64,000 nucleotides of DNA from Escherichia coli. GTDB lineage: Bacteria; Pseudomonadota; Gammaproteobacteria; Enterobacterales; Enterobacteriaceae. Positions 9,759 through 20,783 of this stretch are shown one piece after another; position 1 is the stretch's first letter; each line of letters begins with the position of its first letter. The notes under the pieces were generated by a model. That model was given only the letters and a program-made list of their open reading frames with translations, searched no databases and was not told the DNA's origin. The position numbers and the translations under genes were made by a program. The stretch lies in the NCBI RefSeq assembly GCF_009931435.1, contig NZ_CP043414.1; one strand, written 5' to 3'.

Positions 9759-10330
9759 TGAAAATAATCGACATAAAGGCGATGAAATACCTGGAAGACG
9801 GGTCTGTTTCCTGTGAAGTGTTGTTTGGAGGGCGGGCTGATTATATTCCTTATCGTGCAGTGGAAAATGATTCTGCTGCATCAGGCCAGCGGGTATGGGG
9901 AACACTGATGAGCGGTGAGTTTGGTGAAATCATCCCCTTCACTGTAACAGCAGAGATGCTGGACAAAGAAAAAGAACTGAAAAAAGAGGAAATCAGGCGC
10001 TGGCGAACAGAACAGGAGGCGCAGCCGTTCACATTCGAATGGAACAGCAGCACATGGAATGGAGGAAAATCCTCACTGGAACGCTTATTCCCGGCAGTGA
10101 TGGCAGCAAAATCTGGTGTGGCACACAATGCCACAGTATGGAGTGATGCAAATAACCAACAAATTAAATTGTCACAACAAAAGCTGGAAGAACTACTTAC
10201 GGCAATGGTGCAGGCTCAGGCTGCACGCAACGATGAGATTTACCTGCGCCAGCGTGAGATGAAAAACACGCTGGCCACACTGAATAACATTGCTGCAATT
10301 AGGGCATTTCAGGTGGGCAAAGCAGAATGA
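9758..10330 (+). CDS. tail fibre assembly chaperone for fibre 2
   Basis: 190 aa starting MKIIDIKAMKY; ATG overlaps fibre 2 stop; coiled-coil-like C-terminus. Confidence 0.5.
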   Translation: MKIIDIKAMKYLEDGSVSCEVLFGGRADYIPYRAVENDSAASGQRVWGTLMSGEFGEIIPFTVTAEMLDKEKELKKEEIRRWRTEQEAQPFTFEWNSSTWNGGKSSLERLFPAVMAAKSGVAHNATVWSDANNQQIKLSQQKLEELLTAMVQAQAARNDEIYLRQREMKNTLATLNNIAAIRAFQVGKAE

Positions 10331-11040
10331 AATGGAAAGAGGTAATTTTACGTCCGTCTGCCATAAACATTAAATGTTCTGTGGTTTGTCTTCATCCGTG
10401 GTCAGAAAATACCGGAAACATCAAACCATCGGGGCGTTATCTCAGCCCCGAAAATGCTGTATCTGCACTTTTACCCTACCTGAAAGAAAGCACAGAAAAA
10501 GACATTGTGGCGCTGTTGTTTTGCGCTCCTTCTGCTGGCGAGTTTTTATCACTCGCCAGGCAATTTTCAGGCGCATTTCCATTGCCAGAGGTGGGGCGAA
10601 TGTCCCGCATGATTTCCAGTCAACTTTCACTGGCCATCAGCAGAATGCAAATCCCCGCCAGACCGGCAACATCACTTCCGGAACCGATAATGCTGTCGAC
10701 ACAGACCACTCGCAGCATGTCGCTGGCAGCAACCATTGCACAGGCAGCCACTCCTGCCGCCACATCACCGGAAACATTGTCATCATCGCTGCATCAGTTC
10801 ATGAATGCGAGAGATAAAGCCTTACAGGAAATCGCTGATCAGCAGGCCGCACTCCGGCAAAAAGTTTGCCCGGTGTGGCGCTTTTGCTACAAGGGAGCCC
10901 TTAGCCAGGCTGCAGTGCTGATACAAAAAAACATCCCACACCCCGAGTGGGTTTTTACAGCTGTGATGCTGTTCGTCGGCGATAATCTCTCATCACTAAG
11001 GGAAGCACTACATGACCCAGATGATTGTCCTTGCGCTTGA
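10327..11040 (+). CDS. hypothetical protein (Ser/Thr/Ala-rich)
   Basis: 237-aa ORF, ATGA-coupled to the upstream gene; no family recognised. Confidence 0.4.
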   Translation: MKWKEVILRPSAINIKCSVVCLHPWSENTGNIKPSGRYLSPENAVSALLPYLKESTEKDIVALLFCAPSAGEFLSLARQFSGAFPLPEVGRMSRMISSQLSLAISRMQIPARPATSLPEPIMLSTQTTRSMSLAATIAQAATPAATSPETLSSSLHQFMNARDKALQEIADQQAALRQKVCPVWRFCYKGALSQAAVLIQKNIPHPEWVFTAVMLFVGDNLSSLREALHDPDDCPCA

Positions 11041-11587
11041 CGGGGAAGCCATTCTGCTGCGTAACATCACCGTCAGCGCCACCATGCAACTACCGGACAA
11101 AGATATGTCCGGACAGTCAACCAGCACCACGAGCGCCCAGCAGGGAAACAAGGCTAAAGAGCTGCGCGTGTCGGGGGTTATTGATTTTAACGATGAAGCT
11201 ATTCTGACCCGTATTTTTCAGCTTGCGGAGGCAACAGAAAGCAACGGTGCTAAAAAAACATATCGCATTGCTAACGCTACCGCGAAGGCAATCAATATGC
11301 GACAGGGGGTGTTTTCTGGTGGCATTGATGCCACGGAACAACAGGGAAAAATGCACTGGCAGATCACCTTTACTCTCAGGGAAAAATTAAGCGTGCCAGA
11401 GAAAGCATCCGCACGCAGCGGTTCGCAGAAAACCATCGCCAGACAGCAGACCCAGAATGGCAGCGAACAGGTACCAGACAAAGGCATGAATACGCAAAGT
11501 TCGTTCTGGAAAAAAATCAATGATGCCGTTGGCTCTGGTCTGGATGCTGTTGGCATCGGGAGCGTGAAAGAGGAAGGGAAAACATGA
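11012..11587 (+). CDS. tail protein, possibly gpU-like
   Basis: 191 aa; segment LRVSGVIDFND...MHWQITFTLRE loosely resembles the P2 gpU family as I recall it; immediately 5' of a hub-like gene, matching P2 U-D order. Confidence 0.35.
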   Translation: MTQMIVLALDGEAILLRNITVSATMQLPDKDMSGQSTSTTSAQQGNKAKELRVSGVIDFNDEAILTRIFQLAEATESNGAKKTYRIANATAKAINMRQGVFSGGIDATEQQGKMHWQITFTLREKLSVPEKASARSGSQKTIARQQTQNGSEQVPDKGMNTQSSFWKKINDAVGSGLDAVGIGSVKEEGKT

Positions 11588-13281
11588 AATTGATACAACG
11601 CTGCATGATTAATGGCGAACGGGTGGAAATTGCCGATATAAGCCTTGTTCTTACCCTGAATGCTGCCGGTCGTGGCTTCATTTCTGTTAACAATCTGTCA
11701 CCCGAACACAGCCTTGCCGGCGCAATGGTACAAATTGATCTCGGCCGTGACGGTGAAGCATGGCGCTATTTCTCCGGCTACATTGAGCGCGATCAACCTG
11801 CTGAAAATGGCTCACGTCGCCTTTTTATTCGTGAAGCGGCTGCTGTGCTGGATTTTGATTTCCCTTGCTCCATGCAACACCCGACGTTGCGGGGGGTACT
11901 CGATAATCTGGGGCGACAAAGCGGTATCGTTTTTATCACTCCGGATGCGGATTATGCCAGTATACCAACTCCCTACATCACCCACAGCGGCAGCGGAGCA
12001 CAACTGCTCAGCCAACTGGGGCGAGCATTCAGTATCAGCGATTACGTCTGGCACCCTATGCCGGACGGTTCTGTATTTGTGGGAAGCGCAGCTGATTCAC
12101 GATTTGCCAGTATTACAATGCCGGATATTCCGCAACAGTACACACTCGGGCAAAGCGGCGGAAACAGCATCGACATCATGTTTATGGAAACTGTGCGACC
12201 GGGCGTGAACCTACCGGCCGGGCGCATTACCCGTGTAGCCCTCAACAACGAGAAAATGACCCTGACATGGGAGCGCCTTACCGCCACGGGTACCCCTGTT
12301 TCCAAATCACCATTACGCAGACAAATGGAAACACAGTTCCCAGAACTGGCCAGCGGTACGCTACATACCCGGCTGGCGCGCGTCATTGCGCCAACGGAGC
12401 CCACCACCCTGGGCGACGTGGCCGACAGTTTCCGCCCACGCTACGCCGTCGATGTGCAGTTGCTTGATGAGAACGGCAACGATAAAAGCGACACGCCCGT
12501 TTACCCGGCAGTACCGCTCCCCGTCCCCATGGCTGGCAGTGAGGCGGGATGTTTTGCCTACCCACCGGCAGGCACCATCGTGGAAATATCCAACATTGAA
12601 GGACGTCCGGACAAACCCGTTATCAGGCAAATCTTACCCGCTGGCCATAACCTGCCTGATGTAAAGCCCGGCGAACAGCTGCAGCAACAGCGCGCAGAAG
12701 TGTTTCAGCGCGTCACGACTGACGGAAGCTGGCACAGAGAAACCGATCAGCAAATCAGGGAGCATTCAGCCAGACGAACCATTAACAGCGATCAGGAAGA
12801 ACGCACAACAACAACCAGAACAACAACAGTACAGGCAAACGACATAACCAGCGTTCTGGGAACCAGCAAGCTGATGACAGGCCAGACAGAACACATTACT
12901 ACTGGTCATTATGCGATCGCAGCCGGTGAGCATATCCAGATGGTAGCGCAGGATTTGCTGACTAAACTCAAAGGGGCGACATCCACGATTGAGCGCGACC
13001 TTACTGAAAACGTGGGAGGCCGCAGAACATGCCGGGCGGACGGTGGTCTGGAGTTTACAGCCCCGACAGTATTTATTGGTCGCGGTGGCTCACGGGAAAA
13101 ATCCGGACTTAATCTGCTGACGTTGTTGATTGATATTCTGGATCTGGTTCAGTTGCTGGCCACACACACTGCAAACCACACCCACAGCAACACCGGCGCA
13201 CCAACAAACAACAGCGAACTTGCCGCAGACGCCAAACAGGCTACGAGCCTGCGCGAAAAATACGGTGACCTTATCGCCTGA
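11584..13281 (+). CDS. baseplate hub protein, gpD/gp27/VgrG-like
   Basis: 565 aa; N-terminal pattern ...ISLVLTLNAAGRGF...AMVQIDLGRDGEAWRYFSGYIER is typical of Phage_GPD/VgrG N-domains; Thr-rich stretch EERTTTTRTTTVQ; last gene of the tail operon. Confidence 0.5.
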   Translation: MKLIQRCMINGERVEIADISLVLTLNAAGRGFISVNNLSPEHSLAGAMVQIDLGRDGEAWRYFSGYIERDQPAENGSRRLFIREAAAVLDFDFPCSMQHPTLRGVLDNLGRQSGIVFITPDADYASIPTPYITHSGSGAQLLSQLGRAFSISDYVWHPMPDGSVFVGSAADSRFASITMPDIPQQYTLGQSGGNSIDIMFMETVRPGVNLPAGRITRVALNNEKMTLTWERLTATGTPVSKSPLRRQMETQFPELASGTLHTRLARVIAPTEPTTLGDVADSFRPRYAVDVQLLDENGNDKSDTPVYPAVPLPVPMAGSEAGCFAYPPAGTIVEISNIEGRPDKPVIRQILPAGHNLPDVKPGEQLQQQRAEVFQRVTTDGSWHRETDQQIREHSARRTINSDQEERTTTTRTTTVQANDITSVLGTSKLMTGQTEHITTGHYAIAAGEHIQMVAQDLLTKLKGATSTIERDLTENVGGRRTCRADGGLEFTAPTVFIGRGGSREKSGLNLLTLLIDILDLVQLLATHTANHTHSNTGAPTNNSELAADAKQATSLREKYGDLIA

Positions 13282-13880
13282 TCACCGGGCATACCCCCCC
13301 ATAAACGCCCATCACGCAACGCACGGCTCCGGTCGTGCGTTTTCATATCTGCCACCTGATTAATGCGTTCTGCGTGCCATTCTGGCGCTGTATGCGCACA
13401 CCGCGTAAACGGTGTGACGTAAAGCGTGAGGTGACGTAAACCGCGCTACCCCCTCCAACCCGCGGGTTTCGTGTCGAAACAGTTTTTCAGTTTTCTGCCG
13501 TGCAAAAATGACCGCCAGCCCGCGCAGCAACTGAGGGAAAAGCGAAGATCTGAAATTTCACGCTTTGAAATTTTTTGCAGTTTTCAAAGTGGTTTTTACG
13601 ATCGCACAAATGGCCGGAGCAATAAAACCGCATGATATTAAAAGAGTTTTCATACTTTACGCGAGACAAAAAAACGATCACGAAAGGATCGCATCAAACA
13701 GCCATCAAACAAAGAAGGCAGACACGGCGCGGCCTGCACAAAATTAAGCTCCAAAATAAAACTGAAAAAAAGGATCGCAACAAGAAGAAAAGCGCGTAAA
13801 ACGATCGCTGCTGATGTGGCGTTTCTTTATACAAGCTGCTATTTGCGATATGCTGAACACATCAACCTGTGGAGTGCATT

Positions 13881-14507
13881 ATGAAACGAAAATCAAAGTC
13901 TGCTGCCATTGCTGCTATTACTACAGCTCTGACAGCATCACTGGCTCCGGTGCCAGCTAAAAGCACGATACTACCAACAACAGTTATTGAATCCGCGACA
14001 CACGCCAGAGTGGTTTCAATGCTTACATTTGAGCATCATGATGGTCAGGTGTTTCTGCCTCTCGAAGAAGCTATTGAATATATCAACGGGCTGAATGACA
14101 ACATGCGCGCCGCGCTCAATGCAGTCATTGAAGAACGACAGAACAGAGGCAAGGGAGCACTGTTTACTGACAAAACCGCAAAAATCATAAAAATATGCGA
14201 AGAGTCAATTAAGCAGCACACCCGTGTTAAAGAGGCTGTCAAAATTGTAATGGATCCGGATAACCTGGCAAAAATGTATCCGGATAGCCTGGAGCAAAGA
14301 ATCGCCTATCGCAATAAACTGGTTCGTTTTGGTCGGGCAATTGCGCAGGGAGAGTTTATCGCTCGTGATGCCATCAACACCATCAAACGAAGCACCGCAC
14401 CAGACAAAACAACCAGCCTGGGCAATACGCTGTCTGACGGAAATGTGAAAGCAATGATTATTGCCGAGCATAAAAACATGGGACTCCCGGCACCGGAGTT
14501 TTCCTGA
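13881..14507 (+). CDS. hypothetical secreted protein (signal peptide)
   Basis: MKRKSKSAAIAAITTALTASLA-PVP has an n-region, h-region and A-x-A site; about 208 aa; stop overlaps the next ATG (TGATG). Confidence 0.5.
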   Translation: MKRKSKSAAIAAITTALTASLAPVPAKSTILPTTVIESATHARVVSMLTFEHHDGQVFLPLEEAIEYINGLNDNMRAALNAVIEERQNRGKGALFTDKTAKIIKICEESIKQHTRVKEAVKIVMDPDNLAKMYPDSLEQRIAYRNKLVRFGRAIAQGEFIARDAINTIKRSTAPDKTTSLGNTLSDGNVKAMIIAEHKNMGLPAPEFS

Positions 14508-14887
14508 TGGCAAGCAAAGTAAGCATTCATAAAGATGTTGAATACCAGGACATTGCAAAAGTTTACGGAAAGGCTCTGGAAAACTGGTTAAATACCGGTG
14601 TTCTCCCTGACAGATTCGGCAATGAAGGGCAGTGGGAAGATAACGCAAGATTATGTGGTTCGTTTGTATATAAATTACACATAAGACTACCGTCAGAACC
14701 ACCATGGAAGAAAAGCAAAGCCCAAATAGACAGAACTTCAAATATCTATCTGGTTTATACAAGGCACTGGATGGATTATGACAATATACAAATCATCAGC
14801 ATCATGGCCCCAGATGCTCACGAAAAAGCCAAAACTTCTTTCATGGCTGAACTGGAAAGACGGGCTGAAGAATTCCAGAACTCATAA
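14507..14887 (+). CDS. YafO-like toxin family protein
   Basis: 126 aa; GVLPDRFG, KLHIRL, IYLVYTRHW and a C-terminal AE..RRAEEF line up with E. coli YafO as recalled from memory (GVLPDTFG, HIHL, HLVY...). Confidence 0.5.
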   Translation: MASKVSIHKDVEYQDIAKVYGKALENWLNTGVLPDRFGNEGQWEDNARLCGSFVYKLHIRLPSEPPWKKSKAQIDRTSNIYLVYTRHWMDYDNIQIISIMAPDAHEKAKTSFMAELERRAEEFQNS

Positions 14888-14906
14888 ATTGCCTGATTTT
14901 CTCTCA

Positions 14907-14940
14907 GAAACCCGCAGCGTAAAAACTGTGGGTTTTCTTT
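14907..14940 (+). terminator. rho-independent terminator after the YafO-like gene
   Basis: gaaacccgcag...ctgtgggttt hairpin followed by TTTTTC. Confidence 0.5.
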
Positions 14941-15178
14941 TTGCTACCCTGATACGTGAGGGTAGCACTCAAAGTGAGGCAATATGTAGGCAACCTATTT
15001 AATACGTAAAAATTAATGCATTAAATGGATATTTACTAGCATGGGTACTGGCTTAAAATATCACAACCCTGTTTTATAACGTACTGAATTTATTAGGTGT
15101 GACGGTTTTCCAATGGGGCTTCCGACATTACGTTCAGCTGATGCTTTTCTTATGTAACGAGAAGACATATATTGGTAA

Positions 15179-15234
15179 GCGATGAAGCGATGAAGCGATG
15201 AAGCGATGAAGCGATGAAGCGATGAAGCGATGTA
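15179..15234. repeat. 8-bp tandem repeat (GCGATGAA) x6 plus one variant copy (GCGATGTA)
   Basis: Read directly: six perfect head-to-tail units then one variant, about 95 bp upstream of the ATPase gene start. Confidence 0.95.
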
Positions 15235-15251
15235 ACGTCTGTTTGGTTATA

Positions 15252-15296
15252 AACTTCACACTAATAATTTCTAAATGAAATTATTAGTGTGAAGTT
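15252..15296. promoter_or_regulatory. perfect 20-bp-arm inverted repeat (candidate operator or RNA hairpin) upstream of the ATPase gene
   Basis: aacttcacactaataatttc (15252-15271) / gaaattattagtgtgaagtt (15277-15296), 5-nt loop; 33 bp before the ATG at 15330. Confidence 0.6.
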
Positions 15297-15329
15297 GATG
15301 TTTATTGTGATTATAACTAAGGAATTAAA

Positions 15330-16799
15330 ATGAAATTATCTCCAGCAGAATTGAAGTTAGAAAGGGGTAAGGTTCAAGATAATAAATTCAATCAATATGT
15401 TAAACGTATCACATTAAAAAATGTCAGAGGGTTTGATGAGGAAATTGTGGAGTTTAAAACACCAGTTACAGCTCTTATCGGGACTAATGGTGGAGGGAAG
15501 TCGACTATATTAGGTGCTGTAGCTCTCGCTTATAAAAATGTTAAGCCAAGCAAGTTTTTCCCTAAATCATTTTATGGGGATGATTCAATGAGTGATTGGG
15601 AAATTGGATTCGAATTGATTGACAAGCCTATTTCAAAAGATAAAAATATTAACAGGACTGCAAAATTTAAACAGATGAAATGGCGCAGAGATAATTTCCC
15701 AGAGCGAAATGTTGTATATGTAGAAATACAAAGAACTGTTCCTGCAGGCGAACTAACTAAGTTTAATAAATTTTTATCTGGCGATGCTAAACAATTTGAA
15801 GAAAAAAATCTCAACCCTGAGACAATAAAATATTGCTCTGCCGTTTTAGATAAAAAGATAGAAGATTACAGATGTATAATAAATAAGCACGATCCATCTT
15901 CAAGAATGTTTGTAGGTAAGGCAATTAATGGTTCTGGTTATTCTCAGTTCCATTTTGGTGCAGGTGAAGCATCAATAATAGATACTATTGATAGAATAGA
16001 GACTGCTGCTGATAATTCTCTTGTTTTAATTGAAGAAATTGAAAATGGACTGCATCCTGTTGCAGTGCGGTTGTTTGTTAACTATTTGACAAATGTAGCA
16101 AAGAGGAAAAAGCTGCAAATAATATTTACAACACATTCGCAGGATGCAGTAAACGAGCTAGAGCCAGAAGCTGTTTGGGCTTCTATTAACAAAAAAGTAT
16201 GGAATGGTAAACTAAGTATTGAAAGTTTACGCGCTATAACGGGACAGAAGATAAATTCGAAAGTTATATATGTTGAAGATTCTTTTGCAAAAGAGTGGGT
16301 TGAAAATGCGATGGATCGATATATTCCAGAACTAGCCTCAACAATAAAAGTCTACACGGCAGGTGGTTACCCCAGCGTGGTTAAAGTAAGTCAATATCAT
16401 AATGAGAACCCTACTATAAATTATCCATCAATCGCATTAGTTGATGGGGATATTAAAGGTAGACCCGGAACTAAAGATCTGCCTGATAATGCAATGTTCA
16501 TCGGGGATGATTATCCTGACGCTACGGTTTTTCATTATATTGCAAATAACATAGAAGAAAATGCCTCAGTTTTGAGGCAAAGATGTTTGTTAACAAGATT
16601 TGACGCTGAAAAGATTAAATCGGAAGTTGAGAGTGTGATGCATTCTGCATGTGATCACCATGTTTATTTTACTAGATTAAGTGATAAATTAGATTTTGCC
16701 TCAGAACTATTCATTCGAGCTGGTATGATAGATTTATTTAATGAGAAAAATCCAGAATTTTGGTCCCCAATTATGGACTTCATTAAAAAAGGTCTATAG
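15330..16799 (+). CDS. ABC-type ATPase fused to a Toprim/DUF4435-like domain (OLD-family or fused-PARIS-like candidate defence nuclease)
   Basis: 489 aa; Walker A GTNGGGKST (K57), signature-like SGYSQFHFGAGEAS, Walker B LVLIEE (E235/E236), H-loop FTTHS; C-terminal VIYVED (E316) and ALVDGD (D372/D374) fit Toprim Glu and DxD; strongly AT-rich; own RBS and terminator. Confidence 0.6.
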   Translation: MKLSPAELKLERGKVQDNKFNQYVKRITLKNVRGFDEEIVEFKTPVTALIGTNGGGKSTILGAVALAYKNVKPSKFFPKSFYGDDSMSDWEIGFELIDKPISKDKNINRTAKFKQMKWRRDNFPERNVVYVEIQRTVPAGELTKFNKFLSGDAKQFEEKNLNPETIKYCSAVLDKKIEDYRCIINKHDPSSRMFVGKAINGSGYSQFHFGAGEASIIDTIDRIETAADNSLVLIEEIENGLHPVAVRLFVNYLTNVAKRKKLQIIFTTHSQDAVNELEPEAVWASINKKVWNGKLSIESLRAITGQKINSKVIYVEDSFAKEWVENAMDRYIPELASTIKVYTAGGYPSVVKVSQYHNENPTINYPSIALVDGDIKGRPGTKDLPDNAMFIGDDYPDATVFHYIANNIEENASVLRQRCLLTRFDAEKIKSEVESVMHSACDHHVYFTRLSDKLDFASELFIRAGMIDLFNEKNPEFWSPIMDFIKKGL

Positions 16800-16865
16800 T
16801 AATAATGCAAAAATATAATATTTAGTTTGCGATTTATATTTTTCATAATGAATTGTTGAGAAAAT

Positions 16866-16900
16866 AAGAGAGCATCGAAAATTGAGGCTCTCTTATTTTT
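16866..16900 (+). terminator. rho-independent terminator of the ATPase gene
   Basis: aagagagc (16866-16873) / gctctctt (16887-16894) stem followed by ATTTTT. Confidence 0.6.
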
Positions 16901-17082
16901 ATGAGATATCTCTAATGTATTAATCGTTTTATTTTGGTGCTACCACCACTGATGCTAACTTGTCGATCAGACATTCGCACTATTCAATATCTTTTAGGCT
17001 CCGCAATGAAAACGCCCCCGAAGGAACAATCCCCCGTCAATCGGTTGCCAAAGGCCATTTAGGTAAATCGCCTTCGAGGTCG

Positions 17083-17346
17083 TTCGATGGCTGCATGACG
17101 TTCCCGGTTATCCCGTCAAAGAAAATGCACTCGACCGGAAAACCAGAAGAACTAATGGCGGAGTTGGTCAGGACTGCGAATAGTGGCGGAACAGTCCTTG
17201 ATCCTTTTATGGGGCCAGGGACAACGGGTGTGGCTGCACTGAAAGCAGGGCGAAAATTTATTGGTATAGAGACCAGTGATCATTATTTTGAAGTAGCAGC
17301 ACAGCGACTTCGGGGGACTATTACCACAACCATTTCGACTACATAA
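17083..17346 (+). pseudogene. C-terminal fragment of a beta-class N6A/N4C DNA methyltransferase
   Basis: ...HSTGKPEELMAELVRTANSGGTVLDPFMGPGTTGVAALKAGRKFIGIETSDHYFEVAAQRL matches the AdoMet-binding FxGxG end of N6_N4 MTases; no DPPY-containing N-terminal part upstream. Confidence 0.6.
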
Positions 17347-17446
17347 GACAAAGCCCGCATTTTTGCGGGCTTGTATATCATTAGTGATGTGGACAGTTTG
17401 TGGATGTTTACAAGAAATAAGCTAATAGAAACAATTTGTTATCTTT

Positions 17447-17474
17447 ACAAAAAACGCGCCCGAAGGCGCGTTGG
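17447..17474 (-). terminator. raiA terminator
   Basis: aaaaaacgcgcc-cgaa-ggcgcgtt hairpin 3' of raiA (minus strand), T-run on the transcribed strand. Confidence 0.6.
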
Positions 17475-17495
17475 CGATACACTCAATATAAAGGA

Positions 17496-17891
<396 letters not shown>

Positions 17892-18028
17892 TCAAAATGT
17901 GTGATGGAAATCTCATAATTTTGTCACTTTTTGTCAACGAATCTTTTTTGTGAGAAATCGCAGGAAGAGGTGTTTTTTTACTTGAGGAATATCTCAAAGC
18001 GAGCCATATTTGATGAGATCGATAGTGA

Positions 18029-18808
18029 CTAAATCGCTTCAGTTTCACAACTAACAGAATAAAAAAACGGCAGCTCAAGGCTGTAATGCCAGTCAGTTAA
18101 GCAACTGACTGGCTCTTTTTCGGGGCTGTGGGGTATTTCCAGGGCCTCTCCTTTACCACTCTCGGGAAGGCCCTTTCCCTTCTTGTCGGTAATTTCACTG
18201 GCTGTCCCATACTTGCAAGATCGCGCATCAGCTCCGGTATACGTCCCGGTGAAGCGCATGGCGTCCGTCATCGACGTCAGCAGATGGCTGGTCAGTTCCA
18301 TCTGGCAGACCATTTTGACCTGCGGGTAGAGCGCCGGGTTCCCGGCATGTGTCTGGCGGGGGAAGGCTGCATCGTTCTCTGGTGTATCCGGTGTGCGCCA
18401 GAACACACCATCGATGGCCAGCAGGGTCAGGCTGCACCAGTGCGGATGCAGCGTGGCGTTATGCCAGAGCTGCGCTGTTTTCGTGAACACGCGGCGGACA
18501 GCCTCACTTCCCAGGCGCTGGCGGGCCTGAATAACGGCACTGGGGGCAACGAAGGGGCGATTGCCCGGCAGCATGATGTCCAGGCGATTCACAATCTGGT
18601 GAAGAGGTTCTTTACGCTCAAGCGCCATGCCAACAATACACCAGACCATCATTTCGAGGGGAAGACGGCGCTTGCGTAGCGTTACAGTACCTGATTCGGC
18701 AAGGCAACGAGAGATGAGTTCGGGGTCGAGGTAATCCCCCAGAAAAGTCAGTGGGTTACGCAGAGAATCGTAACGGGATACCAAATCAAGGGCCTGTCCA
18801 ATGAGCAT
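18029..18808 (-). pseudogene. IS4 transposase (InsG-like), internal deletion with frameshifted C-terminus
   Basis: First about 178 aa (MLIGQALDLVSRYDSLRNPLTFLGDYLDPELISRCLAESG...QVKMVCQMELTSHLLT) match IS4 transposase as I recall it; then the frame jumps to out-of-frame 3'-end sequence. Confidence 0.65.
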
Positions 18809-18930: not shown

Positions 18931-19668
18931 TTATGTATTGCTGCTGTTAGCAGCGATAATCTTCGCTACCTTTTCAGCTTGCGCATTCATCTGCATCTGA
19001 CGGTATGCATTTTCCATCAGCGGCAGCGCATCACGCGTAGCCTGGGTATCCGGATAGTCGCGCAACATGCCTTCTACGCGGTTAACGACAGCAACCCATG
19101 CACCACGTTCTGTATAATACTCGGCAACGGAGTATTCATATTTCGCCAGACGATCTTTCAGGAATACCAGACGTTTGGTGGCATCGGTGGTGTACTGACT
19201 GTTCGGATAGCCGCGCACCAGTTTGGAAAAGTCACTAAACGCAGCTCGTGCATGTTGAGGATCGCGATCGCTACGGTCAACGCCAAAGAACCCTTGCAGC
19301 GCACTGTCATCCAGCGCCATATTGGTCAGGCCACGCATGTACATGACATAATCGATATTCGGATGGGTCGGGTTAAGGCGAATAAAACGATCGATGGCAG
19401 CCTGTGCTAACGGCAAATCGGCGTTTTTATAGTAGGCGTAGATGAGATCCAGCTGCACCTGCTGCGAATACGGACCAAACGGATAGCGATTATCTAACGC
19501 TTCCAGTTGCGTTATTGCCTGTCTCCAGTTACCGTCCTGCAGCTTTTGTTGTGCAGTCGCGTAAATTTCATTTGGCGGATTATCAGGTACTTCTTCCTTT
19601 GACCCCGAGCAACCCGCCAAAAACAGGCTTAGTGTGGCGGCTGCCACCAGATATTTCATGCGCGTCAT
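18931..19668 (-). CDS. bamD: outer membrane protein assembly factor BamD
   Basis: 245 aa lipoprotein, signal + lipobox LAGCSG, TPR-like; recognised as E. coli BamD/YfiO. Confidence 0.95.
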
Positions 19669-19802: not shown

Positions 19803-20783
19803 ATGGCACAACGAGTACAGCTCACTGCAACGGTGTCCGAAAACCAACTCGGTCAACGCTTAGATCAGGCTTTGGCCGAAATGTTCCCGGATTATTCACG
19901 TTCGCGAATAAAAGAATGGATCCTCGACCAGCGCGTGCTGGTTAACGGCAAAGTTTGTGATAAGCCGAAAGAAAAAGTATTGGGTGGCGAGCAGGTGGCC
20001 ATCAACGCTGAGATTGAAGAAGAAGCGCGTTTTGAACCGCAGGATATCCCGCTGGATATCGTCTATGAAGATGAAGATATCATCGTCATTAATAAACCAC
20101 GCGACCTGGTGGTACATCCTGGCGCGGGTAACCCGGATGGCACGGTACTGAATGCGTTGCTTCATTATTATCCGCCCATTGCCGATGTACCGCGTGCGGG
20201 CATCGTCCATCGTCTGGATAAAGACACCACCGGCCTGATGGTTGTGGCAAAAACCGTTCCGGCTCAGACGCGTTTAGTCGAATCTTTGCAACGGCGTGAA
20301 ATTACTCGTGAGTATGAAGCGGTGGCAATTGGTCATATGACCGCTGGCGGTACAGTAGATGAACCAATCAGCCGCCACCCGACCAAACGTACTCACATGG
20401 CGGTGCATCCGATGGGTAAACCGGCGGTCACTCACTATCGCATCATGGAACACTTCCGTGTGCACACGCGTCTGCGGTTGCGTCTGGAAACCGGACGTAC
20501 GCACCAGATCCGCGTGCATATGGCCCATATCACTCATCCGCTGGTGGGCGATCCGGTTTATGGCGGCCGTCCGCGTCCGCCAAAAGGTGCTTCGGAAGCG
20601 TTTATCTCCACGCTGCGTAAGTTTGACCGCCAGGCGCTTCATGCAACCATGCTGCGTCTTTATCACCCGATCTCCGGCATCGAAATGGAATGGCATGCGC
20701 CTATTCCACAAGATATGGTGGAGCTGATTGAGGTGATGCGCGCCGATTTCGAAGAGCATAAGGATGAAGTGGACTGGTTATGA
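19803..20783 (+). CDS. rluD: 23S rRNA pseudouridine synthase D
   Basis: 326 aa, MAQRVQLTATVSENQLGQRLDQALAEMF..., HRLDKDTTG motif. Confidence 0.95.
   Translation: MAQRVQLTATVSENQLGQRLDQALAEMFPDYSRSRIKEWILDQRVLVNGKVCDKPKEKVLGGEQVAINAEIEEEARFEPQDIPLDIVYEDEDIIVINKPRDLVVHPGAGNPDGTVLNALLHYYPPIADVPRAGIVHRLDKDTTGLMVVAKTVPAQTRLVESLQRREITREYEAVAIGHMTAGGTVDEPISRHPTKRTHMAVHPMGKPAVTHYRIMEHFRVHTRLRLRLETGRTHQIRVHMAHITHPLVGDPVYGGRPRPPKGASEAFISTLRKFDRQALHATMLRLYHPISGIEMEWHAPIPQDMVELIEVMRADFEEHKDEVDWL

What the first reader, a model, noticed from the sequence alone, without database searches (positions are those of the whole stretch)
15330..16799. Stand-alone ABC-ATPase + Toprim-like fusion gene in an AT-rich islet: candidate single-gene anti-phage nuclease
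The 489-aa product has a full ABC/OLD-type ATPase core (Walker A GTNGGGKST with K57, signature-like SGYSQFHFGAGEAS, Walker B LVLIEE, H-loop FTTHS) and a C-terminal region with a Toprim-like Glu (VIYVED, E316) and DxD (ALVDGD, D372/D374). It is visibly far more AT-rich than the flanking prophage and core DNA, has its own RBS and terminator, and sits in cargo between a prophage tail operon and a decayed methyltransferase. The architecture is that of OLD-family nucleases, and of PARIS if AriA and AriB were fused. It is shorter than P2 Old (about 586 aa, from memory) and has no adjacent helicase, HNH or separate DUF4435 partner, so it does not fit two-gene Gabija, Septu or PARIS. It may be a compact or uncharacterised single-gene variant.
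Basis: partly seen in the sequence, partly recalled or inferred. Interest (0 to 1): 0.8.

Follow-up and report, generated by a model that had tools for sequence, protein, structure and literature searches.

The report
Known single-gene phage-defence nuclease (HEC-04)

Summary

It matches PADLOC model HEC-04 end to end (E = 6e-204). It is 42% identical to the HEC-04 protein tested by Payne et al. (bioRxiv 2024).

The gene lies inside a P2-family prophage, in cargo next to attR (a 27-bp repeat over the raiA terminator). It has no conserved partner across seven different contexts.

It is neither a fused PARIS nor a close relative of P2 Old. Only the ATPase motifs align with those families.

Verdict: an already known kind of system. 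The nuclease substrate (tRNA or DNA) and the trigger remain unknown.

The only possibly new item is upstream of the gene: a hypermutable 8-bp repeat (7-13 copies between strains) and a perfect palindrome with 20-bp arms in the leader.

The parts
15330..16799 (+). HEC-04-family gene: 489-aa ABC ATPase fused to a Toprim nuclease. RefSeq WP_057108823.1 'ATP-dependent nuclease' is the product annotated on 99.2-99.7%-identical DNA in other strains; protein identity to it was not checked.
   Evidence: ORF. PADLOC HEC-04 E=6e-204, residues 2-488 on model positions 5-488 of 494. 42% identity to the tested HEC-04. RefSeq annotation.
15330..16229 (+). N-terminal ABC ATPase domain (about aa 1-300). K57 is encoded at 15498-15500. 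The domain also holds the Q-loop Q134, the signature region at aa 204-213, Walker B E235/E236 and H-loop H269.
16242..16796 (+). C-terminal Toprim domain plus helical bundle (about aa 305-489). Metal-site codons: E316 at 16275-16277, D372 at 16443-16445, D374 at 16449-16451.
15319..15323 (+). Shine-Dalgarno AAGGA, 6 nt upstream of the ATG.
   Evidence: Sequence.
15252..15296 (+). Perfect inverted repeat with 20-bp arms and a 5-nt loop in the leader or promoter region. It overlaps promoter-like hexamers on both strands. As RNA, it and its flanks fold so that the Shine-Dalgarno sequence is paired.
   Evidence: Fold of -32.4 kcal/mol, z=-8.9. The half-site occurs nowhere else in the window or in the left half of the prophage. 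Present in all E. coli copies. Absent from the Enterobacter and Pantoea loci.
15177..15232 (+). Tandem repeat of the 8-bp unit AAGCGATG, 7 copies here. Copy number varies between strains.
   Evidence: Tandem Repeats Finder: 7.0 copies, 100% match. Copy numbers of 7, 8, 9, about 11 and 13 in other strains. 7 against 8 copies in two genomes with 0 mismatches over 42 kb.
16860..16905 (+). Intrinsic terminator of the gene.
   Evidence: Hairpin with U-run, -22 kcal/mol, z=-4.0.
14969..17473. Segment shared by E. coli carriers whatever the prophage background, shown for the loci fetched (L003-L006; L001/L012 by their annotation): leader, gene, methyltransferase 3' remnant and attR.
   Evidence: Homology breakpoints against L003-L006. 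16 of 5426 complete E. coli genomes carry it, all on the chromosome; raiA adjacency was confirmed in the six loci fetched.
17048..17346 (+). 3' fragment of a DNA methyltransferase (pseudogene) with its terminator at 17351-17372.
   Evidence: PADLOC MTase_II 1.4e-22, covering only the C-terminal part of the models. RefSeq: 'incomplete, missing N-terminus'. 90% identical to the 3' end of an intact com-linked methyltransferase in strain rl0044.
17447..17473 (.). attR core: a 27-bp direct repeat (1 mismatch) of the attL sequence beside the integrase. It overlaps the raiA terminator.
   Evidence: with integrase-side context.

Best explanation
**What it is.** The gene is a member of the HEC-04 family. 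This is a single-polypeptide anti-phage defence protein made of an N-terminal ABC-type ATPase and a C-terminal OLD-type Toprim metal-dependent nuclease. It is carried as lysogenic-conversion cargo at the attR end of a P2-family prophage inserted at raiA.

**Shown here**
- Family membership.
- Both domain folds.
- Conservation of the catalytic residues.
- Location in a mobile element without a conserved partner gene.

**Taken from the literature, on a 42%-identical homologue**
- The protein alone protects E. coli from T4, T5 and other coliphages.
- The Walker A lysine and the Toprim E/D/D site are both required.
- Over-expression is toxic.

**Inferred mechanism.** The ATPase acts as the infection sensor and switch, and holds the fused Toprim inactive. 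A phage cue together with ATP binding or hydrolysis licenses the nuclease. Cleavage then stops the infection at the cost of host growth, which is the abortive-infection type of defence.

**Substrate (unknown).** My split is about 50% tRNA or another RNA, as for AriB and P2 Old. About 35% is DNA nicking or cleavage, as for GajA and Vibrio class 1 OLD. About 15% is something else.

**Confidence.** The 0.8 given applies to family membership and a defence role, not to the substrate split.
For: **Sequence and family**
- PADLOC HEC-04, E=6e-204, full length. The C-terminal 210 aa alone score 7.9e-68 against the same model.
- 42% identity over residues 14-390 to the tested HEC-04 (WP_044502283.1). 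K57, E316, D372 and D374 align with K62, E319, D375 and D377.
- Payne et al. report defence, loss of defence in the K62A and EDD mutants, and toxicity with IPTG.
- K57, E235/E236, H269, E316, D317, D372, G373 and D374 are invariant in 39 homologues.

**Structure**
- The AF2 model has pLDDT 84.7. Foldseek's best hits are TsOLD at 5e-13 and GajA at 1e-11.

**Context**
- The homologues sit in prophage cargo, an ICE, beside an Mrr-type enzyme, in an integrase island and beside a Peduoviridae integrase. None has a conserved neighbour.
- PHROG 3940, E=7e-98, shows the family occurs in phage genomes.

**Lean towards RNA as substrate**
- In the distant homologue IbfA, phage DNA replication was unaffected while late gene expression and host viability fell.
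- P2 Old is now known to cut tRNA, and AriB cuts tRNA (abstracts).
Against: - This allele has not been tested. At 42% identity to the tested protein, phage range could differ.
- Pfam finds no Toprim or DUF4435 domain. The C-terminal sequence profile finds nothing in the PDB. The Toprim assignment therefore rests on predicted structure, motif conservation and one weak PADLOC hit (5.6e-4).
- The substrate, trigger and oligomeric state are not known for any HEC-04 member.
- IbfA is only 28% identical over residues 29-320, so its phenotype may not transfer.
- The reported in vitro activities of TsOLD, BpOLD and XccOLD, and the in vivo activity of Vibrio OLD, are on DNA.
Confidence: 0.8

Rival explanations
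1. [quoted passage not shown]
For: The best full-length structural matches are TsOLD and GajA. TsOLD, BpOLD and XccOLD are nonspecific DNases in vitro. A Vibrio class 1 OLD nicks DNA in defence (PMC12392090).
Against: In the distant homologue IbfA, phage DNA copy number was not significantly reduced. The top structural match of the C-terminus is AriB, a tRNase. P2 Old, long thought to be a DNase, acts on tRNA in vivo.
Confidence: 0.35
2. It is a fused PARIS system, with AriA and AriB in one polypeptide. It would be triggered by anti-restriction proteins such as Ocr and would kill by cleaving tRNA-Lys.
Confidence: 0.05
3. It works only together with a neighbouring gene, either the upstream 212-aa protein plus YafO-like toxin pair or the methyltransferase, as a multi-gene system.
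For: In this window the pair at 13869-14887 lies about 440 bp upstream on the same strand. In strain rl0044 an intact com-methyltransferase module lies directly upstream.
Against: Copies of the segment that are 97-99% identical at the DNA level sit behind hok/ogr in ST69 and behind com-methyltransferase in rl0044, without the pair. The downstream methyltransferase is a 3' fragment. Terminator-like hairpins separate the units. The tested HEC-04 works as one gene. Homologues elsewhere have unrelated neighbours.
Confidence: 0.03
4. It is mainly a selfish addiction or stabilisation module, or a housekeeping RecF/SbcC-like repair ATPase, and not an immune gene.
For: Over-expression of HEC-04 is toxic. 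NCBIfam gives weak hits to RecF, Rad50 and SbcC.
Against: Those hits cover only the Walker A region and score far below the curated cut-offs. The gene is present in only 16 of 5426 E. coli genomes. In every locus examined it sits in a mobile-element or variable context. Anti-phage activity was measured directly for the family.
Confidence: 0.03

Closest known systems
HEC-04 (Payne et al. 2024, bioRxiv 10.1101/2024.01.29.577857; PADLOC PDLC04149)
   Same: Same length (489 against 490 aa) and the same ABC ATPase + Toprim fusion. Full-length HMM match (E=6e-204). 42% identity to the tested protein, with identical catalytic residues. Single gene.
   Different: The tested copy is embedded in an Hma system of E. 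coli MOD1-EC5853. This copy is attR-proximal cargo of a P2-family prophage. This allele is untested. It has a strain-variable 8-bp repeat and a palindrome with 20-bp arms upstream, which are not seen in the Enterobacter or Pantoea homologues.
IbfA of IncI1 plasmids (R64, pUA1135; PMC12111858)
   Same: ATPase + Toprim single protein. PADLOC assigns it to HEC-04 according to that paper. It causes abortive-type interference with P22-like and other phages.
   Different: Only 28% identity, over residues 29-320. It is 518 aa, plasmid-borne and part of an operon.
Class 1 OLD nucleases (P2 Old, Thermus scotoductus OLD 6P74)
   Same: [quoted passage not shown] Stand-alone gene. P2 Old is likewise cargo of a P2-type prophage. 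Best Foldseek hit (5e-13).
   Different: Sequence similarity to P2 Old is limited to the Walker A and Walker B/H-loop regions (hhalign aligns 62 columns). The protein is about 100 aa shorter than P2 Old. The predicted ATPase has only about 60 residues between the Q-loop and the signature motif, so it apparently lacks the inserted dimerisation domain of TsOLD and GajA.
PARIS (AriA + AriB)
   Different: Two proteins in PARIS against one here. No DUF4435 or AriB match by sequence. The best-scoring stretch of the AriA match covers only the Walker B/H-loop motifs.
Gabija GajA / retron Eco8-type ATPase-Toprim effectors
   Same: ABC ATPase + Toprim in one chain. PADLOC ATPase-Toprim_I-B is the only non-HEC-04 model that reaches the C-terminus (5.6e-4).
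   Different: No GajB helicase, reverse transcriptase or msr/msd is adjacent. Bit scores are low (50-70).

Membership tests
HEC-04 (PADLOC PDLC04149) | Full-length match to the family HMM | tested here: met
   E=6e-204, 676 bits, residues 2-488 on model positions 5-488 of 494. The next best model, AriA, scores 89 bits.
HEC-04 (PADLOC PDLC04149) | N-terminal ABC ATPase with the Walker A lysine needed for defence (K62 in the tested protein) | tested here: met
HEC-04 (PADLOC PDLC04149) | C-terminal Toprim with the metal site E319/D375/D377 | tested here: met
HEC-04 (PADLOC PDLC04149) | Acts as a single gene (no conserved partner) | tested here: met
   Neighbours differ in three E. coli prophage backgrounds and in Enterobacter, Pantoea, Xanthomonas, Brucella and phage phiE094.
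HEC-04 (PADLOC PDLC04149) | Confers phage resistance | not testable with these tools
   Shown only for the 42%-identical homologue.
OLD family, class 1 | ABC ATPase + Toprim in one polypeptide, encoded as a lone gene | tested here: met
   Class definition taken from PMC10568477.
OLD family, class 1 | Sequence homology to Old/OLD models across both domains | tested here: not met
   The PADLOC Old model scores 52 bits and its best stretch lies at the Walker B/H-loop motifs. hhalign against P2 Old aligns 62 columns, the Walker B/H-loop region only. No OLD-type Toprim Pfam hit.
OLD family, class 1 | Dimerisation domain inserted in the ATPase (TsOLD, GajA) | tested here: inconclusive
   The model shows only short elements between residues 139 and 196, and the protein is about 100 aa shorter than P2 Old. 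No direct superposition of that region was made.
PARIS (including fused forms) | AriB-type DUF4435 Toprim recognisable by sequence | tested here: not met
   No DUF4435 in Pfam at E<=10. The C-terminus alone hits no AriB model in PADLOC at E<=10.
PARIS (including fused forms) | AriA-type ATPase across its length | tested here: not met
   AriA models score 58-89 bits, and their best stretches cover only residues 200-271.
PARIS (including fused forms) | Activation by Ocr-like anti-restriction proteins | not testable with these tools
   Needs an experiment.
Gabija | Adjacent GajB (UvrD-like helicase) | tested here: not met
   No helicase ORF within the cargo at 13300-17500.
Retron type I-B (Eco8-like) | Adjacent reverse transcriptase and msr/msd RNA | tested here: not met
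   No reverse transcriptase ORF. Rfam finds no retron RNA in 13000-18000.

The most novel reading that the evidence does not exclude
The E. coli segment carrying the gene may have a contingency-type control region. It would consist of a hypermutable 8-bp tandem repeat (7-13 copies; 7 against 8 in two otherwise identical genomes) just upstream of a perfect leader palindrome with 20-bp arms, whose extended fold pairs the ribosome-binding site. Together these could set or switch the expression level of a toxic immune nuclease, giving population heterogeneity in prophage-encoded immunity. Separately, HEC-04 may turn out to be a tRNA-cutting Toprim enzyme.
Probability: 0.2. Interest if true: 0.55.

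Novelty: already known. Interest (0 to 1): 0.25.

Why it matters
The result confirms that reading raw sequence can recover a real defence gene down to its catalytic residues. The family, however, is already in PADLOC and has been validated genetically.

What value remains is modest.
- It documents HEC-04 as attR-proximal cargo of P2-family prophages at raiA. The module is rare, found in 16 of 5426 complete E. coli genomes, and is shuffled between prophage backgrounds.
- It provides a natural second allele (42% identical to the tested one) for comparing phage range.
- It points to a hypermutable repeat and a palindromic leader that could be tested as an expression switch for a toxic immune gene.

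The open questions for the family (substrate, trigger, assembly) are not resolved here.

Tried and rejected
- **Pfam on the full protein** found only ATPase families and no Toprim or DUF4435. Sequence alone could therefore not settle the C-terminus.
- **PDB profile searches.** The full-length profile reached only ATPase motifs of OLD and PtuA. The C-terminal profile found nothing at E<=10.
- **Fused PARIS, Gabija, Septu and retron readings** were rejected because there are no partner genes and similarity is limited to motifs.
- **The upstream YafO-like pair as a partner** was rejected because it is absent from two other backgrounds that carry 97-99% identical DNA copies of the gene segment.
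- **A remnant lying outside the prophage** was rejected. No internal copy of the att core exists between 13000 and 17446.
- **The palindrome as a shared operator of a prophage regulator** has no support. The half-site occurs nowhere else in the window or in the left half of the prophage.
- **The upstream repeat and palindrome as a family-wide feature** was rejected. They are absent from the Enterobacter and Pantoea loci, where only the coding sequence is homologous.
- **Rfam** found nothing credible in 13000-18000. There were two hits, both far below their gathering scores.
- **Naming the prophage** from sequenced phages failed. Only tail-fibre segments match.
- **A mechanistic follow-up on HEC-04 in the literature** was not found, apart from the IbfA paper.

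Full report
**1.

The six-frame ORF list shows an ATG-initiated ORF at 15330..16799 (+) encoding 489 aa.
- GTNGGGKST, with K57.
- YSQFHFGAGE, residues 204-213.
- LVLIEE, residues 231-236.
- FTTHS, residues 266-270.
- VIYVED, with E316.
- ALVDGD, with D372 and D374.

GC content is 0.31-0.37 between 15000 and 17000, against 0.45-0.60 on both sides. An AAGGA Shine-Dalgarno sequence ends 6 nt before the ATG. A hairpin with a U-run follows the stop codon at 16860-16900 (-22 kcal/mol, z = -4.0).

The protein has 2191 database relatives with E<1e-5. Nearly all are about 490 aa long. This is a real gene and not a chance ORF.

**2. Identity of the protein**

Against PADLOC-DB the protein matches model PDLC04149 'HEC-04' from end to end (E = 6e-204, 676 bits). 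The next best models are AriA, NsnB, PDC-M07A, ATPase-Toprim_I-B, AbiLi, PtuA, GajA and Old. They score 50-89 bits, and for most of them the best-scoring stretch lies at the Walker A or Walker B/H-loop motifs.

NCBIfam has no family-level model for it. All its hits are Walker-A-level matches far below their cut-offs. Pfam reports AAA_15, AAA_21, AAA_23 and SMC_N but nothing for residues 300-489. PHROG 3940, of unknown function, matches at 7e-98, so the family is present in phage genomes.

HEC-04 is described by Payne et al. (bioRxiv 10.1101/2024.01.29.577857). They report the following:
- A single gene from E. coli MOD1-EC5853 reduced plating of several coliphages by orders of magnitude. According to the IbfA paper these include T4 and T5 but not T7 or lambda.
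- The Walker A mutant K62A and the metal-site mutant E319A/D375A/D377A lost defence.
- IPTG induction was toxic.

From their Table S2 I took the first 399 residues of the tested protein. The window protein is 42% identical to it over residues 14-390. K57, E316, D372 and D374 align with K62, E319, D375 and D377.

**3. Fold evidence**

I aligned 39 homologues at 43-78% identity (A1). The following residues are invariant:
- K57, the YSQFHFGAGE segment, E235/E236 and H269.
- E316/D317 and D372-G373-D374.
- H357, N360, D442 and H444.

Q134 is nearly invariant.

**4. Where it sits**

The window is E. coli. raiA lies at 17496-17837 (-), bamD at 18931-19668 (-) and rluD at 19803-20783 (+).

In the 99.7%-identical locus of strain ETEC1717, a P2-family prophage fills the gap between pheL and raiA. 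It carries an integrase, Cox, a replication endonuclease, an ogr-like gene, portal and terminase genes, the GPO scaffold, a P2-type capsid and tail genes.

A 27-bp direct repeat with one mismatch links the integrase-side junction to window 17447-17473, over the raiA terminator. No other copy of the core exists between 13000 and 17446. The gene therefore lies inside the prophage, in the cargo between the last tail-type gene (a 565-aa VgrG-like protein) and attR.

Only 16 of 5426 complete E. coli genomes carry the gene, always on the chromosome. All six reference loci I fetched place it beside raiA.

The shared segment starts at window 14908-14969 and runs through attR. What lies upstream differs between strains:

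| Strain | Genes immediately upstream of the segment |
|---|---|
| This window and ETEC1717 | 212-aa unknown protein plus a YafO-family toxin |
| ST69 | ogr and hok |
| rl0044 | ogr, hok, a TM2 protein, com and an intact methyltransferase |

In rl0044, 260 bp at the 3' end of the intact methyltransferase are 90% identical to the downstream fragment in the window. The segment is therefore reshuffled among prophages that share this att site.

Homologues in other genera show the same lack of a fixed partner:
- Alone between unrelated genes in Enterobacter.
- In an ICE in Pantoea.
- Beside an Mrr-type enzyme in Xanthomonas.
- In an integrase island in Brucella.
- Beside the integrase of the Peduoviridae phage phiE094.

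No partner gene is conserved.

**5. How it most likely works**

Three things are shown here: the family, the folds, and the catalytic residues in a mobile, partner-free context. The literature on a homologue shows one-gene defence that depends on the ATPase and Toprim sites, and toxicity on over-expression.

The rest is inferred by analogy with OLD, Gabija and PARIS. The ABC head would sense a phage cue and couple ATP binding or hydrolysis to licensing of the fused Toprim. Its metal-dependent cleavage then arrests the infected cell.

The substrate is the real unknown, because OLD-type Toprim enzymes fall into two groups:
- **DNA.** TsOLD, BpOLD and XccOLD are reported as DNases in vitro. A Vibrio class 1 OLD nicks DNA.
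- **tRNA.** AriB cuts tRNA. [quoted passage not shown]

In the distant relative IbfA, phage DNA replication was unaffected. Late gene expression, burst size and host viability all fell, without lysis. That pattern, plus AriB being the top structural neighbour, makes me lean slightly towards RNA (about 50%) over DNA (about 35%). IbfA is only 28% identical over residues 29-320, so this lean is weak.

**6. Comparison with known families**

- **HEC-04.** The protein is a member. Every testable feature was met.
- **Class 1 OLD.** It works like one and fits the contextual definition: a lone gene with an ATPase followed by a Toprim. It is not a sequence-level member. hhalign against P2 Old (586 aa) aligns only 62 columns around Walker B and the H-loop. 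The predicted ATPase has little room for the inserted dimerisation domain.
- **Fused PARIS.** It is not one. There is no DUF4435 or AriB signal by sequence, and the best AriA match covers only the Walker B/H-loop motifs.
- **Gabija, Septu and retron effectors.** These are excluded because the helicase, HNH protein, reverse transcriptase and msr/msd RNA are all absent.

**7. Upstream region (outside the finding)**

An exact tandem array of the 8-bp unit AAGCGATG lies at 15177-15232, with 7 copies. Other strains with 97-99.7% identical loci carry 8, 9, about 11 and 13 copies. ETEC1717 and ETEC1718 have no mismatch over 42 kb, yet differ by one unit (7 against 8). That indicates a high slippage rate, although an assembly artefact cannot be ruled out.

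Twenty bases downstream of the array is a perfect inverted repeat with 20-bp arms (15252-15296). It overlaps promoter-like hexamers on both strands. As RNA it folds with its flanks into a structure of -32.4 kcal/mol (z = -8.9) that pairs the Shine-Dalgarno sequence.

The half-site occurs nowhere else in the prophage. The Enterobacter and Pantoea loci have neither feature. Whether these elements tune expression of a toxic gene is untested.

**8. Verdict**

The system is an already known kind (HEC-04), which PADLOC would label automatically. Interest is low to modest at 0.25. The open questions are those of the whole family (substrate, trigger, assembly), together with the possible repeat-based control region.

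Noticed in passing
window 15177-15232: Perfect tandem repeat of the 8-bp unit AAGCGATG, 7 copies, about 100-150 bp upstream of the ATG. Copy number is 7, 8, 9, about 11 or 13 in other E. coli strains. It differs by one unit (7 against 8) between ETEC1717 and ETEC1718, which have no mismatch over 42 kb. It may be a contingency-type repeat. Every plus-strand frame hits TGA within the array, and the minus strand is open.
   Followed up: partly
window 15252-15296 (fold spans 15240-15323): Perfect palindrome with 20-bp arms and a 5-nt loop directly upstream of the ribosome-binding site. It overlaps promoter-like TTCACA-18-AATTAT hexamers on both strands. As RNA it extends into a fold of -32.4 kcal/mol (z=-8.9) that pairs the Shine-Dalgarno sequence. 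It is unique in the prophage and absent from the Enterobacter and Pantoea homologue loci.
   Followed up: partly
window 13869-14887: Two overlapping genes (ATGA junction): a 212-aa protein with no family match in Pfam, PADLOC, NCBIfam or PHROGs, which RefSeq labels 'SufA' in some strains, and a 126-aa YafO-family toxin-like protein (NCBIfam 7e-11, below the cut-off). This may be a toxin-antitoxin module with a novel antitoxin. It is absent from the rl0044 and ST69 versions of the locus.
   Followed up: partly
window 17048-17372; L003 1644-2461: The methyltransferase fragment and its terminator are 90% identical to the 3' end and terminator of an intact com-linked methyltransferase that lies upstream of the same gene in strain rl0044. 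There, the HEC-04 segment is flanked by direct repeats of about 300 bp. This is evidence of module shuffling by recombination among prophages that share the raiA att site.
   Followed up: partly
window 17447-17473; L002 10672-10698: The 27-bp att core (1 mismatch) of the P2-family prophage overlaps the raiA intrinsic terminator. The prophage occupies the pheL-raiA gap.
   Followed up: yes
window 18029-18808 (-): A truncated ORF between raiA and bamD, IS transposase-like in my reading of the sequence. Tool evidence: it matches the first 180 positions of a 442-residue PHROG profile of unknown function and then a separate short profile. The roughly 810-bp segment is absent from ETEC1717.
   Followed up: no
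window 1-12000: The prophage has no close relative among 50,697 phage records. Only tail-fibre segments (6428-9046) match, at 83-89% identity, to phiP27, Rac-SA53 and an Actinobacillus phage, which suggests tail-fibre exchange.
   Followed up: no
L013 2328-5677 (Burkholderia phage phiE094): The phage's HEC-04 homologue (36% identity) is annotated as two CDSs, gp49 and gp48. This could be a frameshift or a split gene. It lies next to the integrase and is followed by a 570-aa protein with a cytidine-deaminase domain, possibly another cargo defence gene.
   Followed up: no
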